A stretch of DNA of 45,313 bases from Escherichia coli (GCF_003334315.1 NZ_QOWR01000038.1), one strand, 5' to 3'; shown: positions 28,101 to 34,100, counted from the first letter of the stretch. Program-made: the numbers.

Positions 28101-31100
28101 ACGCGGCAATGGATGGTAATCAAACCTTCCGGCGTCGAATACGACGTGATGACCGCCGACGATATGGTGGTGGTTGAGATAGCCAGCGGTAAGGCGGTGG
28201 AAGGCAGCAAAAAGCCCTCTTCCGATACGCCAACGCATCTGGCGCTCTACCGTCGCTATGCAGAGATCGGTGGCATTGTGCATACCCACTCGCGCCACGC
28301 GACCATCTGGTCACAGGCCGGGCTGGATCTCCCCGCCTGGGGCACCACCCACGCCGATTATTTTTACGGTGCCATCCCCTGCACGCGCCAGATGACCACT
28401 GAGGAGATCAACGGCGAGTATGAATACCAGACTGGCGAAGTGATCATTAAAACCTTCGAAGAACGTGGTTTGAACCCGGCACAAATCCCGGCGGTACTGG
28501 TACATTCTCACGGCCCGTTCGCCTGGGGAAAAAACGCCGCCGATGCGGTGCATAACGCCGTGGTGCTGGAAGAGTGCGCCTATATGGGCCTGTTCTCGCG
28601 CCAGCTTGCGCCGCAGCTCCCTGCCATGCAAAACAAACTGCTGGATAAACACTACCTGCGTAAGCATGGAGACAATGTCTATTACGGGCAGTAATCCCTC
28701 ACGCCGGGGCTTCATCGCCCCGGCACTACGAATTGATATGTTCCTTGCTGTAACGCCGTTTCCACGCTGCTGGCGTTAAACCGGTGTGTTTGCGAAAAAT
28801 CTGCCGGAAAAAGCCAACGTCATTAAACCGTATTGCATGGAGCAGGCCGACAACGTCGAGTCACTGCATAACCTGTTGCTGCCCGCCGATGCGCCATTTA
28901 CGACATTTGAAGGCAAGGGATTGTTCAGCCATAAGATCCTGATTCAGACGCCAGGTTCCCGGTATGAACAGAGCAATCCAGAGCAACAACCTTTGTGGCA
29001 TTACGACGGAGCACCAGCCGCACCAACATCCACCGGTGAATTAAAAACGCCAGCTCACGCCGGTGACAAAGGTAAAACTCTCATTACGATCAATCATCGG
29101 GCTGTCGGTAATCTCTTCCGGCAGCTCGCTGTATCCTGCACTCGCCATCAATACGACGTGCTCTCCTATCGGGTATTTTGCCGTCAGGCTGACATAGGGC
29201 ACCCAGGCATCCTGCGCGGAATAACTTGCCAGACCGCTACGACGGGACTCACTCTCTGAAATGCCATAGTAATAGTCACTGAAATTCTCGTCATAATAGA
29301 GCACGCCCAGCGCAGGTGTCAGCGACAGGCGACCTATCTGCATTTTGTGGAAAACCGATAGCTCCCCCACCCAGCCGTTGCTGTTATCCAGAACGTCCGC
29401 AGCCGCAGAGGCTTTCACAGTTCCCCAACGCTCGTGGTGATACCAGGCAACCCCCGCCATAGCCGTACTATCACGCTTATCAAGCTGTTGCATGGCATAA
29501 TCGTCATTATCGGCAGGGTCAAATTCCAGCGGCATCCAGGATGCGGTCAGGCTAAGTTCATTTTTTTCACTTTGCGACAGAATAAAACCTAACGTGGTCT
29601 GACGAACATAAAAAGAATCACCTTCATAACTAATCAGGGGAATTGCCTTTGTATTTTCATTATAACCGCGATAAGGCGATTCATTATAAGCCGCACCGGC
29701 ACCAATGGATAATTCAGAAGCAGTTGCGCTTGCCATAAAAGGCAACGCAAATAACGCCACAATATTGCGGTTAATTAACATGTTCGGTATTCCATTTTAA
29801 AATAAGATAAAAAAGAGTCGGCATAGTAATGCTTACAATTTCTCCGGTGCAAGATTCATATTTATATAGTAATATATAAAATTATATATAATTGGGCTGT
29901 TGCGATGACAAAATTACAACTTAAGTACCGGGAGTTAAAAATTATCTCGGTAATCGCTGCCAGTGAAAATATCAGCCATGCCGCGACTGTACTTGGCATC
30001 GCACAGGCCAACGTCAGCAAATATCTTGCTGATTTTGAATCAAAAGTGGGTTTAAAAGTCTTTGACCGAACCACCCGGCAGCTGATGCTCACACCTTTTG
30101 GTACCGCGCTGTTACCGTACATCAACGACATGCTGGACAGAAACGAGCAGCTTAATAATTTTATTGCAGATTATAAGCATGAGAAACGTGGTCGGGTCAC
30201 CATCTACGCCCCAACCGGCATAATTACCTATTTATCCAAACATGTAATCGATAAAATTAAAGATATCGGTGATATCACCTTATCGCTAAAAACCTGCAAT
30301 CTTGAGCGTAATGCCTTTTATGAAGGCGTCGAATTTCCTGATGATTGTGATGTTTTAATCAGCTACGCTCCACCAAAAGATGAATCGCTGGTTGCCAGTT
30401 TTATTACCCAATATGCCGTAACCGCTTATGCCAGCCAGCGCTATCTTGAGAAACATCCCATTAGCCGTCCTGACGAACTCGAACATCACTCCTGTATTTT
30501 GATCGACTCGATGATGATCGACGACGCGAATATCTGGCGCTTCAACGTCGCCGGGAGTAAAGAGGTGCGGGATTATCGCGTGAAGGGAAATTACGTTTGC
30601 GACAACACGCAATCTGCGCTGGAGCTGGCACGAAATCACCTGGGGATTGTGTTTGCGCCAGACAAAAGTGTGCAGAGCGACCTGCAAGACGGCACGCTGG
30701 TGCCCTGCTTTCAGCAACCCTATGAATGGTGGCTGGATCTGGTGGCTATCTTCCGTAAACGGGAATACCAGCCCTGGCGGGTCCAGTATGTGCTGGATGA
30801 AATGCTGCGTGAAATTCGCCACCAGCTTGCTCAGTCGCAGCAACTGCGGCCTGAACAAGCGGCGGAAAGCGAAGATTAATGATCGAGATAAAGGTAATGC
30901 ACCAGGGAAAATTCATGAACATGCCCGTATTTACAGGCTTCGTAGTGTAGCAGGTTCTCAAATTTTGAACTTTATGAGTTAGCGCTATCACACAACAATC
31001 AATTATCCGATGATCGATTTGTAGATCATTTTCAGTGTTTTCTAATACCTCCATAGACAAATTGGAGGTCCAACGATGAGTAACCAGCACCCATTTATGC

Positions 31101-34100
31101 ATTTCGATGCCATCCCAGATTATCGCCAACAAGGTAAAGTCGAGCACAAGTTAACTGATATCATTTTGTTAACAATTTGCGCGGTGCTTTCCGGTCAAGA
31201 TGACTGGAAAGCTATCCATCTTTACGGCACTAGATGGTTAGATTTTCTCAAACGCTTTGGTGATTTTAGTCATGGTGTTCCCTCTGCCATTACCATTGCA
31301 AGAGTGATGGGAATGATTAGCGCGACACGCTTACAAAAGTGTTTTATCGAATGGATGAAATCCTGCTGTGAACTGACGGACGGTGAAGTGATCGCCATAG
31401 ACGGTAAAACCGTGCGTGGCTCTTATGATGATTCCCGTGGGCTTGGTGCTATCCATATGGTTAATGCGTTTGCGACAGAGAATGGCGTGTGCCTTGGACA
31501 ACATAAAGTTTACGAGAAGTCCAATGAGATAACCGCTATCCCTGAGTTGCTTCAACTGCTTGATATATCGGGTTGTTTAGTCACAATTGATGCGATGGGA
31601 TGCCAAAAGAAAATCGCGCAAAAGATCCTTGAAAAAAACGCTGATTACTTGCTGGCCGTGAAAGGAAATCAAGGCCGACTTGAGCAAGCTTTTGATAACT
31701 ATTTTGATATGAGCATGCTGCAAAAACATGATGGTGATTCTTACAGTACCCAAGAAAAATCGCGAGGCAGACAGGAAACACGACTGGCTTTAGTGAATGA
31801 AGATTTAAGTGTTTTGGGCGATCTTGAGTTTGATTGGCCAGGGCTAAAAACGATGGGAATTGTGGTATCGATTAGACAAGAATCAGCAGTGGCCCAAGAG
31901 TCAGAAGTAACGGTGCGATATTATATTAGTTCGAAAGCGCTCAGTGCTAAAGAATTGTTAAATGCTTCACGCTCGCACTGGTTAGTCGAGTCGATGCATT
32001 GGATGTTGGATACTGCATTTGGTGAAGATGCTTGCCGTAAACGAGCGGAAGAACGAGCAGAGAATTTCGCAAGGATCAGACAGATGTGTTTAAACATGCT
32101 AAAAAGTGAAACGACACTAAAAGCGAGTATTAAACACAAAAGAGCGATGTGCGCGATGGATCCGGAGTACCTTTTGAAGGTTCTGGGAAGCCTTTATTTA
32201 CGGGAATGTTCATGATTTTTCCGTGGGAACGAGGATTAATTAAACTATTATCTTACTTAACTCTGCACACGGACTCAGGAGTAAGGACTTCTTCCGATAA
32301 AGAAAAACTAGCCTAAAGAAACTATTTTTCCTAAAATATCAACAACATATTTTTTTGCGATAGCTTCATCTGACGATTCCGCATAGCAACGTAATTCCGG
32401 GGCATTACCTGATGGTCGCAAATGAAAAATGTCACCATTTGAAAGGCAGAATCGCGCGCCATCTGTTTGATCGATATGAGTACAACTTACTGAATCGATT
32501 CCCATTTTTTCCAAGAATTGTGCAGGAGCAGCGATTGCTCCGTCGATGATTTGACGGCTCGTTTCTGAGGGGAAATTTTTAATTCGGTCAGACCAGGTAA
32601 AACGCCGAGGCAATTTCTTTATCAATTGCGAAATTTCCCCTTTACTAGAAGCAACTAGCAGCATCAGTGCCGGTAAAACAGCATCGCGGGTGGGTAGAGA
32701 CGCTAAAGTTTTATTGTTAACTTGTAGATCAGATGCTAGCAAAAAACCGCCATTGGCCTCAAAGCCAGCGACTGCATTATATTTTTCAATTAGACTCTCA
32801 AAGCCTGCGATAACATACGGTGACCCAATTTTTGTTCTTTTAACTAATTCAAACTTCTGTGAGCATTCTATCGCAGTATTACAGCTTACCGGAACTGCCA
32901 GAGCGTTAATATTTAATTCTGCCGCAGCCAATAAACCAAGAATATCGCCCCGTAACCATTCCCCATTTTCATCTGAAACAAGCGGGCGATCACCATCACC
33001 ATCAGTTGAAAAAATAGCATCAAGGTTAAACTCAGCTGACCAACTCTTAGCACGCGCCCGATCTTCATCGCTTACAGCCTCAGTATCGATAGGCACAAAT
33101 TCATCGCTTCGGCCAAAAGAAATAACTTCCGCACCCAACGCACGGAATAATGGAGCGTACAAGTCGCGCCCAGCGCTTGAGTGCTCATAAATTCCCAAAC
33201 GCTTACCATCCAGTATTTTATTTTCAAATAATGAAACGTAGCGTGAAATATAAGCTTCAGCTCCGGCTGTATTTAATTGTAACTCAGGGAGTTCAAAGAC
33301 CCTTTCAAATTCATGTTTGCAACTTACAATAGCCGACTCATCGTTTTTAGAAATTTCACCATCCGGTCGATAAAACTTCAACCCATTACGATCAAATGGT
33401 ATATGGCTTCCAGTTACCATAATACACGGTATATTTTTCTGCATTGAATAATAGGCTAAAGCAGGCGTTGGTATGACACCATGGTACTCCACATCAAATC
33501 CCATTTTCTTAATCGCGTAAGCACAAGCCTGAGCGATTTCATAACTGCTTGGGCGATTATCGATGGCAAGCGCTACGGTTTTGAAATCGAAATGATTTCT
33601 AATGACTGCTAGAAAACTATGCGTAAACGCTGCACAAACATCATGTGTAAAATCAACAACTAGACCGCGAGCACCGCTAGTACCGAAAGCGATACGACTC
33701 TCACTGATAACTGTATTAGTACTTAACATGTTGTTCACTTTTTAATAAATTGTGGAAGTTTTGATAGATTTTTATATATCAAAGCTAATGGCCATATAAT
33801 TCCGTTAGTCTTCATAATACGTATATCTTCCATTGATTTATTTATCATGGATGATAAGGAGCGGTTACTAATGCCACCGACTCGCATTTTCACCAATACT
33901 TTAGGTAAATAGGAAATATTTATTCGTTTTTTTAAAATGTAACGCAGTAGAGAATCATAATCGGCAGAAATGCGATAGTCGAGAGAAAAATCACCAAACT
34001 TTTGATAACAGGAACGTTTCATATAAAATGAGGGATGAGGCGGCATCCACCCTAGTTGCATTTTTGTACGGTTATACGCTCCGCTTTTCCAGAGTCTGAC

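What the first reader, a model, noticed from the sequence alone, without database searches (positions are those of the whole stretch)
30880..32307. H-repeat (ISAs1-family) element forms the junction between the core block and the polysaccharide cluster
The K-12-like order ends about 60 bp after the yiaU stop, and a 1.3-kb ISAs1-type element with an intact 379-aa transposase follows; its far end is 36 bp from the manB stop. H-repeat elements are known to sit at the edges of O-antigen clusters in some lineages and to act as recombination substrates. This copy is therefore the likely breakpoint that brought the cluster next to yiaU.
Basis: partly seen in the sequence, partly recalled or inferred. 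Interest (0 to 1): 0.55.

Follow-up and report, generated by a model that had tools for sequence, protein, structure and literature searches.

The report
IS element bounding a relocated O-antigen cluster
An intact, widely spread ISAs1-family insertion sequence sits exactly where E. coli core DNA (inside yiaV) stops and a horizontally travelling O-antigen gene cluster begins; this is a further example of a known way of moving surface-sugar genes, not a new mechanism.

Summary
The element is a complete 1,323-bp ISAs1-family IS (window 30903-32225) with 24-bp imperfect terminal repeats and an intact 379-aa transposase. Core homology ends 23 bp after the yiaU stop, not about 60 bp, and the break lies inside yiaV, not in a spacer. 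The IS end is 82 bp from the manB stop, not 36 bp. Eleven other insertions of this IS carry a 10-bp target duplication; this copy has none. The IS-82 bp-manB joint is identical in every other copy of the cluster: IS26-bracketed units on NDM-5 plasmids, Citrobacter plasmids, Klebsiella chromosomes and Shigella dysenteriae 1012. So the IS arrived with the cluster, and the new joint is its left end against yiaV. The cluster's other boundary is an IS1 5 bp upstream of galF, where the contig ends. Gene orientations rule out a single inversion, the IS appears single-copy, and it is only 51% identical to the K-12 H-repeat protein. Import from an extrachromosomal donor fits best, as in the H-repeat cointegrate model for Salmonella group D2. 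The exact route is unresolved.

The parts
1..96 (-). IS1 terminus at the left contig end, facing outward. It is the same terminus as at 44861, so the two IS1 copies are inverted relative to each other.
   Evidence: rc(1..96) is identical to 44861.. (GGTAATGACTCCAACTTATTG...).
29905..30879 (+). yiaU (LysR-family regulator), the last intact core gene.
   Evidence: 100% match to E. coli E2865 yiaU. K-12 annotation.
30876..30902 (-). The 3'-terminal 27 bp of yiaV (stop plus 8 codons), which is all that remains of yiaV in the contig.
   Evidence: Reference alignment (...GGTAATGCAC|CCAGCTGG in the reference...GGTAATGCAC|CAGGGAAA in the window). yiaU/yiaV overlap shown.
30903..32225 (+). Complete ISAs1-family insertion sequence, 1,323 bp, with no target-site duplication here (flanks GGTAATGCAC and GGAACGAGGA).
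   Evidence: It is 99.7-100% identical to copies in many genomes and plasmids, which carry 10-bp duplications.
30903..30926 (+). Left terminal inverted repeat, CAGGGAAAATTCATGAACATGCCC. This is the newly formed joint with yiaV.
31076..32215 (+). Transposase, 379 aa, intact.
   Evidence: The exact protein is seen on >=1000 contigs.
32202..32225 (-). Right terminal inverted repeat (rc CACGGAAAAATCATGAACATTCCC).
32226..32307 (.). 82-bp spacer between the IS and the manB stop. This flank is ancestral and is conserved in all other copies of the module.
32308..33738 (-). manB-type phosphomannomutase, the last gene of the cluster.
33735..43647 (-). Rest of the Wzx/Wzy-type O-antigen cluster, all ORFs intact: GT2, manC, gmm, fcl, gmd, GT4, EpsG-type polymerase (wzy), Stealth-family protein, GT2 and flippase (wzx).
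43653..43691 (-). 39-bp JUMPstart element with ops (GGCGGTAG at 43657-43664) between galF and wzx. The operon keeps its own leader region.
   Evidence: direct reading. Identification as JUMPstart/ops rests on established knowledge.
43962..44855 (-). galF, intact. The native sequence continues only to 44860.
44861..45313 (+). IS1 (partial, runs off the contig end). It starts 5 bp upstream of the galF ATG, replaces the native ribosome-binding region, and forms the right boundary of the foreign block.

Best explanation
The element is an intact ISAs1-family insertion sequence of a currently active, widely disseminated type. In an ancestor it had inserted 82 bp downstream of manB, at the gnd-proximal end of a complete galF-to-manB O-antigen operon. 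The block of IS plus cluster was later imported into the chromosome of this E. coli lineage from an extrachromosomal donor, as an ectopic module. The IS's left terminal repeat became the joint with the target, inside yiaV and 27 bp from its 3' end.

The joint coincides with the IS terminus to within the single ambiguous base and has no target duplication. It was therefore made by one of three routes (rough split 40/30/30):
(a) transposase chemistry at that end, with cointegrate-type transposition from a plasmid-borne cluster, as proposed for H-repeat elements in the origin of Salmonella group D2;
(b) homologous recombination with an IS copy already present in yiaV;
(c) an IS-end adjacent deletion following an IS1-mediated integration.

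The second IS copy and any donor backbone have since been lost. The other edge is now an IS1 5 bp upstream of galF.

Shown: the anatomy, the missing duplication, the ancestral IS-manB joint, the mobility of the module, and the recurrence of the junction in independent assemblies. Inferred: the donor, the order of events, and which of (a)-(c) applies.
For: - The IS is complete and identical to active copies.
- A 10-bp duplication is present at 11 other insertion events: L009, L023-L029 (seven copies), the L030 tandem dimer, the L021/L022 composite and L051. It is absent here.
- Core homology stops exactly at the IS terminus.
- The right flank GGAACGAGGATTAATTAAAC plus manB is shared with module copies in which IS26 cuts the IS at three different positions, 964, 1008 and 1198. 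The IS-manB joint therefore predates all of them.
- The module is >=99.9% identical on p3575-NDM-5 and on other E. coli, Citrobacter, Klebsiella and S. dysenteriae 1012 replicons.
- The same junction is 100% identical over 21 kb in a second assembly, GCA_012531215.1, and further similar places were not shown.
- Orientation excludes a single inversion.
- This IS type demonstrably moves polysaccharide genes. Two copies with one shared 10-bp duplication bracket glycosyltransferase genes in CP058175.1, and copies sit at the edge of other plasmid polysaccharide loci.
- Precedent model: PMC3715488, Fig. 7 legend.
Against: - The right-hand side beyond IS1 is not in the contig, so insertion, replacement or larger rearrangement cannot be told apart.
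- No second IS copy, and no copy of the duplication GGTAATGCAC next to the rest of yiaV, could be looked for.
- The transposition mechanism of ISAs1-family elements is not established, so route (a) rests on analogy.
- No donor carrying a full-length IS next to manB was found outside this lineage.
- The inference that the IS is single-copy rests on assembler behaviour, and a related draft (L007) does break at the IS end.
Confidence: 0.6

Rival explanations
1. First reader's model. The resident O-antigen locus was brought next to yiaU by homologous recombination between two chromosomal H-repeat copies, one between manB and gnd and one at yiaV.
For: - The IS lacks a target duplication.
- ISAs1/H-repeat elements are known at O-antigen cluster edges.
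- The cluster has the galF...manB layout of a resident locus, with an E. coli-like galF (99.1% over 533 bp).
- IS1 insertions close to chromosomal galF exist in 12 complete genomes.
Against: - Direct orientation of yiaU(+) and manB(-)...galF(-) is incompatible with one inversion between those sites.
- Direct-repeat recombination would give a lethal 1.65-Mb excision, or an unstable tandem duplication with three IS copies.
- The contig traverses the IS in two assemblies, which argues against several copies.
- The same module is a proven traveller on plasmids and in other genera.
Confidence: 0.1
2. IS1, not ISAs1, brought the module in, by IS1-mediated cointegration or as an IS1-bounded unit. The ISAs1 end became the joint only afterwards, through an adjacent deletion that removed yiaV and donor DNA.
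For: - IS1 forms the other boundary, 5 bp from galF.
- The whole contig is bracketed by two inverted IS1 termini.
- Other copies of the module are also cut by IS1, after wzy in L016, L018 and L020 and inside manC in L050.
- A single IS copy without a duplication is what an adjacent deletion leaves.
Against: - There is no sequence beyond either IS1.
- No ISAs1-end deletion derivative of the module was found. The candidates checked turned out to be different clusters.
- It needs two events where the best explanation's cointegrate route needs one plus a loss.
Confidence: 0.2
3. Assembly chimera. The IS is present both in yiaV and next to a plasmid-borne cluster, and the assembler joined the wrong flanks through the repeat.
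For: - The window is a draft contig.
- The cluster is usually plasmid-borne.
- The missing duplication is what a chimeric join would show.
Against: - An independent assembly of another sample gives a 100% identical 21-kb stretch across the junction, and further similar places exist.
- Both assemblies break at IS1 but not at the longer ISAs1.
- No sampled plasmid form retains a full-length IS to be confused with.
Confidence: 0.05
4. The IS is a passenger. It inserted by ordinary transposition into a junction between yiaV and manB that already existed.
For: This IS type is highly active, with insertions at many unrelated sites.
Against: - There is no 10-bp duplication, although 11 of 11 other insertion events have one.
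- The right flank is the ancestral module flank in unrelated contexts.
- Core homology ends exactly at the IS terminus.
Confidence: 0.02

Closest known systems
H-repeat (ISAs1-family) element at the junction of the Salmonella enterica group D2 O-antigen cluster (cointegrate model; PMC3715488, Fig. 7, after Xiang et al. 1994)
   Same: An ISAs1-family element lies at the edge of an O-antigen gene block. It marks the exact joint between DNA of two origins. The proposed route is transposition from a plasmid-borne cluster into the chromosome.
   Different: - There the element is a remnant inside the galF-gnd locus and created a hybrid cluster. Here the IS is intact and the joint is at an unrelated locus (yiaV).
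- A whole operon is relocated here, not recombined.
- The transposase is only 51% identical to the K-12 H-repeat protein used as the reference there.
IS26-flanked O-antigen insertions such as the 17.5-kb O89b cluster in E. coli ST167/ST617 (PMC6392093)
   Same: A complete O-antigen cluster sits outside its canonical place, is bounded by IS elements, and was acquired horizontally in MDR E. coli lineages. This very module also circulates as an IS26-bracketed unit of about 12.5 kb.
   Different: - O89b is a wzm/wzt (ABC-transporter) cluster with two IS26 copies.
- The window has a wzx/wzy cluster bounded by two different ISs (ISAs1 and IS1) and contains no IS26.
Plasmid-borne O-antigen clusters flanked by IS elements, such as the Shigella sonnei form I cluster on pINV (from my own knowledge, not tested here)
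   Same: A complete O-antigen operon has been moved away from galF-gnd with IS elements at its borders.
   Different: Different genes and different ISs, on a plasmid and not in the chromosome. The S. sonnei cluster is the strain's functional O antigen, whereas function here is unknown.
Classical Rhs-associated H-repeat / ISEc1 of E. coli K-12 (yhhI, ydcC and relatives)
   Same: Same IS family, same length class, a single DDE transposase ORF of about 378 aa.
   Different: 51% protein identity and essentially no DNA similarity. There is no Rhs context. The K-12 copies are largely static, whereas this IS is near-identical across at least eight genera.

Membership tests
ISAs1 family of insertion sequences | Transposase matches the family model above the curated cutoff | tested here: met
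   NF033564: 398.1 bits against a cutoff of 70, full-length model match 1-314.
ISAs1 family of insertion sequences | DDE_Tnp_1 catalytic domain with the DDE_Tnp_1_assoc N-terminal domain, in a single ORF | tested here: met
   PF01609 E 2.5e-29 and PF13808 E 1.6e-28. One 379-aa ORF.
ISAs1 family of insertion sequences | Element of about 1.2-1.5 kb bounded by short imperfect terminal inverted repeats | tested here: met
   1,323 bp. 21 of 24 bases match (33 of 39 extended). Only the two ends match in the window, against 0 expected by chance.
ISAs1 family of insertion sequences | Target-site duplication on insertion | tested here: not met
   This IS type makes 10-bp duplications at 11 other insertion events. 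The window copy has none (GGTAATGCAC vs GGAACGAGGA). This bears on the history of this copy, not on family membership.
Classical H-repeat (ISEc1, Rhs-associated) | Close sequence identity to the K-12 H-repeat unit | tested here: not met
   51% amino-acid identity to YhhI. DNA is 68% identical over only 185 bp.
Classical H-repeat (ISEc1, Rhs-associated) | Location within or next to an Rhs element | tested here: not met
   No Rhs gene flanks the element. The neighbours are yiaU/yiaV and manB.
Wzx/Wzy-dependent O-antigen gene cluster | wzx flippase, wzy-type polymerase, glycosyltransferases and nucleotide-sugar genes in one operon | tested here: met
   RefSeq annotation of the 100%-identical plasmid copy, Pfam families, NCBIfam hits for manC and others. 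All ORFs are intact.
Wzx/Wzy-dependent O-antigen gene cluster | galF upstream and a JUMPstart/ops leader | tested here: met
   galF at 43962-44855. JUMPstart at 43653-43691 with GGCGGTAG.
Wzx/Wzy-dependent O-antigen gene cluster | Canonical location between galF and gnd | tested here: not met
   gnd is absent. The manB end abuts the IS and yiaV, and the galF end abuts IS1.
Wzx/Wzy-dependent O-antigen gene cluster | Produces an O polysaccharide / assignment to a serogroup | not testable with these tools
   No serogroup name is attached to the wzx or wzy clusters. No chromosome among 5,426 complete E. coli genomes carries the cluster, only plasmid p3575-NDM-5.
Composite (compound) transposon | Two copies of the same IS flanking the cargo, with one target duplication outside | tested here: not met
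   The boundaries are two different ISs, ISAs1 and IS1. Only one ISAs1 copy is in the window. The outer flank of IS1 is not in the contig.
Cointegrate from replicative transposition (Salmonella D2-type model) | IS end joined to the target, donor flank retained on the other side, no duplication around the single IS | tested here: met
Cointegrate from replicative transposition (Salmonella D2-type model) | A second, directly repeated IS copy carrying the matching 10-bp target sequence at the far end | not testable with these tools
   The contig ends in IS1. Continuity through the IS in two assemblies suggests no second copy survives.

The most novel reading that the evidence does not exclude
The window preserves the only sampled copy of a cross-genus O-antigen cassette that still has its full-length ISAs1 element. 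On this reading, an ISAs1-family IS, and not IS26, first lifted a complete galF-manB O-antigen operon out of a chromosome. IS26 later trimmed it into the roughly 12.5-kb unit that now rides on NDM-5 and other resistance plasmids in E. coli, Citrobacter, Klebsiella and Shigella. That would make it a serotype-conversion cassette co-travelling with carbapenem resistance. The window form and the plasmid forms are sisters and neither derives from the other: the plasmids keep wcaM-galF spacer sequence that the window lacks, and the window keeps IS sequence that they lack.
Probability: 0.2. Interest if true: 0.6.

Novelty: new member of a known kind. Interest (0 to 1): 0.3.

Why it matters
IS elements at the borders of relocated O-antigen clusters are well known, so the junction itself is ordinary. 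Two points give it some value.

First, it is a clean, base-resolved example of an intact ISAs1-family element whose terminus is the recombination joint. The transposition mechanism of this family is poorly characterised.

Second, the cargo is a complete, apparently functional O-antigen operon. The same operon circulates at >=99.9% identity on carbapenemase plasmids and in other genera.

If the cluster is expressed, such strains could carry two O-antigen loci or switch serotype by plasmid transfer. That matters for serotyping, vaccines and phage susceptibility.

Tried and rejected
- **Moellerella hit (H90).** It appeared to extend exactly 10 bp past the IS, which suggested a carried-along duplication. 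That copy has its own duplication, GCTAACGAAG, and the extension was chance similarity.
- **O89b (PMC6392093).** It is a wzm/wzt cluster and so a different one.
- **OgN5/Onovel1 of ST410 (PMC10786849).** Not this cluster, because no complete E. coli chromosome matches ours at high identity.
- **Plasmid copies of the IS next to a 'sugar phosphate nucleotidyltransferase' or 'NAD-dependent epimerase'.** I suspected IS-end deletion derivatives of the module. They are different capsule or rfb-type loci.
- **ISEcp1-style one-ended transposition.** There is no surrogate IS end in the window. It cannot be excluded beyond IS1.
- **Native downstream context (manB-IS-gnd, or the pre-insertion allele).**
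  - Complete E. coli genomes hold only the plasmid copy.
  - The metagenome scan returned only the IS26-bracketed form.
  - The genome-contig scan never ran and its cap was consumed.
  - The far end of the wcaM-galF contig L017 could not be reached.
- **Left IS1 junction.** Looking for close relatives through it gave no clear match.
- **Literature.** Searches found no description of this module. This covers only the held library.
- **ISfinder name.** It could not be determined, because annotations say only 'ISAs1 family transposase'.
- **Tandem duplication of 1.65 Mb by unequal exchange.** It would create the joint, but it needs three IS copies and is inconsistent with the contiguous contigs.

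
Full report
**What is there**

It is an ISAs1-family transposase. It scores 398 bits on NCBIfam NF033564 against a cutoff of 70, and it matches Pfam DDE_Tnp_1 and DDE_Tnp_1_assoc.

Megablast against 5,426 complete E. coli genomes showed that the repeated unit covers only window ~30902-32226. Copies that are 99.7-100% identical occur at many chromosomal and plasmid sites. A copy inserted in fhuA (L009) is 100% identical over 1,324 bp.

I compared the flanks of independent copies: L009, L023-L029, the L030 dimer and L051. These fix the element at 1,323 bp with ends CAGGG...CCGTG and a 10-bp target duplication. 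In the window this is 30903-32225. The terminal repeats match at 21 of 24 positions, and at 33 of 39 when extended. They are the strongest inverted repeat in the region. Only the two termini match the end sequence in 45 kb, against zero expected by chance.

The exact transposase protein is indexed in 3,467 blocks of the contig collection and seen on at least 1,000 contigs. The DNA is on plasmids of Escherichia, Citrobacter, Enterobacter, Klebsiella, Providencia, Moellerella, Leclercia and Vibrio. It is therefore an intact copy of an active, widely spread IS, not a remnant.

**Corrections to the observation**

- In reference E. coli, yiaU(+) and yiaV(-) converge and overlap by 4 bp (E2865, K-12).
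- The reference reads ...GGTAATGCAC|CCAGCTGG and the window reads ...GGTAATGCAC|CAGGGAAA.
- Core sequence therefore ends at 30902, which is 23 bp after the yiaU stop and not about 60 bp.
- The break lies inside yiaV, of which only the last 27 bp remain.
- The IS right end is 82 bp from the manB stop, not 36 bp.
- The label 'H-repeat' is loose. The K-12 H-repeat protein YhhI is 51% identical, and the DNA aligns over only 185 bp at 68%.

**The copy has no target duplication**

The 10 bp on the left are GGTAATGCAC and the 10 bp on the right are GGAACGAGGA. All 11 other insertion events examined have a perfect 10-bp duplication. One of these is a pair of copies in CP058175.1 that bracket glycosyltransferase genes and share a single duplication, GGTGCGATGC, which makes it a composite transposon. 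The window copy is therefore not a simple insertion. Its two flanks come from different histories.

**Which flank is old**

The segment 32227-44330 is 100% identical to plasmid p3575-NDM-5. There, two IS26 copies bracket the cluster and cut into the ISAs1 element and galF.

Other copies of the cluster occur in:
- further E. coli plasmid contigs;
- Citrobacter portucalensis plasmids;
- two Klebsiella sp. chromosomes, which carry several IS26-flanked copies;
- a plasmid-like contig of Shigella dysenteriae 1012;
- a metagenome contig.

All are >=99.9% identical to the window. In all of those that reach this end, the 82-bp spacer and the right end of the IS are present. IS26 truncates the IS at three different positions, 964, 1008 and 1198.

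The IS-manB joint is therefore ancestral to the whole family of module copies. The IS travelled with the cluster. The joint that is new in this lineage is the left IS terminus against yiaV.

**The other boundary, and the nature of the window**

The window is an entire draft contig: QOWR01000038.1, 45,313 bp, from GCA_003334315.1, labelled E. coli.

All other versions of the cluster match the window up to exactly 44860. At 44861 an IS1 terminus begins, 5 bp upstream of the galF ATG, and it replaces the native ribosome-binding region. Bases 1-96 are the same IS1 terminus facing the other way. The contig is thus bounded by two inverted IS1 copies, and nothing beyond them can be read.

Within the block, all cluster ORFs are intact and the JUMPstart/ops leader is present at 43653-43691. 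GC content steps from 0.507 in the core to 0.427 in the IS and 0.360 in the cluster.

**Is the junction real?**

A contig from a different assembly (GCA_012531215.1, 44,757 bp) is 100% identical over 21 kb across yiaU-IS-manB, and further similar places were not shown. No complete E. coli genome has the junction.

Both draft assemblies break at IS1 (768 bp, from my own knowledge) but run through the 1.3-kb ISAs1. I infer that the IS is single-copy in those genomes. A third draft (L007) has a contig spanning exactly from the IS end to the IS1 end. There the same module boundaries exist, but the IS is repeated or the assembler was more conservative.

**Mechanism**

In K-12, gnd, the O-antigen genes, galF and wcaM all lie on the minus strand in that coordinate order, and yiaU is on the plus strand. 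The window joins yiaU(+) to manB(-)...galF(-), which is direct orientation.

- One inversion between IS copies at gnd|manB and in yiaV would give gnd|yiaU and manB|yiaV, not what is seen.
- Recombination between direct copies would excise 1.65 Mb, or create a giant tandem duplication with three IS copies.

The best-supported reading is import of the IS-plus-cluster block from an extrachromosomal donor, with the joint formed at the IS terminus. Three routes fit:
(b) homologous recombination with an IS copy already in yiaV;
(c) an IS-end adjacent deletion following an IS1-mediated integration.

All three need later loss of a second IS copy or of donor backbone. The IS1 at the galF end is a plausible agent of that loss. 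I cannot discriminate among them with the contig alone.

**Relationship between the window form and the plasmid forms**

The plasmid and Klebsiella forms retain part of wcaM and wcaM-galF spacer sequence, with an IS3-family element in some. The window lacks these. The window retains the full IS, which they lack. Neither derives from the other. Both descend from an ancestor of the form wcaM-galF...manB-ISAs1. I could not find that ancestor with its left IS flank.

**Comparison with the known, and verdict**

IS-bounded relocation of O-antigen clusters is established. Examples are the Salmonella D2 H-repeat, the IS26-flanked O89b cluster (PMC6392093) and, from my own knowledge, the plasmid-borne S. 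sonnei cluster. The IS itself is widely annotated.

This is a new instance of a known kind. Its modest interest comes from the precise anatomy, and from the fact that the cargo is a complete O-antigen operon that also circulates on carbapenemase plasmids across genera. I found no description of this module in the held literature, which is not proof that none exists.

Noticed in passing
window 1-96 and 44861-45313: Both ends of the contig are the same IS1 terminus facing outward. The 44.8-kb block (glyS...yiaU, ISAs1, O-antigen cluster) is therefore bracketed by two inverted IS1 copies. It is unknown whether this reflects an IS1-mediated inversion or composite unit, or only assembly breaks.
   Followed up: partly
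window 44856-44861: IS1 is inserted 5 bp upstream of the galF start codon and replaces the native ribosome-binding region (native ...AGGTGGACACGATAATG; window ...GGAGTCATTACCCGATAATG). galF translation may be affected, while the O-antigen operon keeps its own JUMPstart leader.
   Followed up: partly
window 32227-44330; L001, L005, L006, L047-L050, L055: The same cluster circulates as an IS26-bracketed unit of about 12.5 kb at >=99.9% identity. It occurs on IncFII NDM-5 plasmid p3575-NDM-5, on other E. coli plasmid contigs (some beside beta-lactamase and 16S methylase genes), on a Shigella dysenteriae 1012 plasmid-like contig (with IS1 in manC) and on a metagenome contig. IS26 cuts the ISAs1 element at three different positions.
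   Followed up: yes
L012, L013, L034, L035, L037, L038 (AP022195.1, AP022201.1); L011, L014 (AP022396.1, AP022515.1): Klebsiella sp. wastewater isolates carry two or more IS26-flanked copies of this E. coli-type cluster in the chromosome, partly disrupted by other ISs. One copy lies next to wza-wzb-wzc. Citrobacter portucalensis plasmids carry a longer version with a wcaM fragment and an IS3-family element upstream of galF.
   Followed up: partly
L021/L022 (CP058175.1, about 1.563-1.571 Mb): Two copies of this IS flank an approximately 5.5-kb segment encoding glycosyltransferases (a 946-aa GT2/GT1 fusion, a 552-aa protein and a GT92-like protein). The outer flanks share one 10-bp duplication, GGTGCGATGC, so this is a bona fide composite transposon built from this IS and carrying polysaccharide genes.
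   Followed up: partly
L030 (CDRHZY010000001.1), locus 4509-7150: A head-to-tail tandem dimer of the IS in which the second copy lacks its first 4 nt. A single 10-bp duplication, ACTGCACGGG, surrounds the pair. It could be a transposition intermediate or product, or a long-read assembly artefact.
   Followed up: no
L053 (pMB9366_2, ST131) and L054 (pLAU-OXA3): The identical IS sits at the edge of other plasmid-borne polysaccharide loci. One is a kps-like capsule locus with a Stealth protein and a CDP-glycerol glycerophosphotransferase. The other is an rfbB/rfbA-type cluster. Truncated Providencia Ugd proteins also fall in the transposase's sequence cluster. This suggests a recurrent association of this IS with surface-polysaccharide genes.
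   Followed up: partly
window 40645-41637: The cluster encodes a Stealth-family (CR1/CR2) protein. From general knowledge of this family as hexose-1-phosphoryltransferases, this suggests a phosphodiester-linked sugar in the repeat unit. No serogroup could be assigned, and no complete E. coli chromosome carries the cluster.
   Followed up: no
L016 (NKEV01000059.1): In another E. coli draft, a truncated version of the module (partial wcaM, galF to wzy, then IS1) abuts a fragment of bcsG next to ldrD-yhjV-dppFDCBA. This is a second, independent chromosomal site in the same general region of the chromosome.
   Followed up: no
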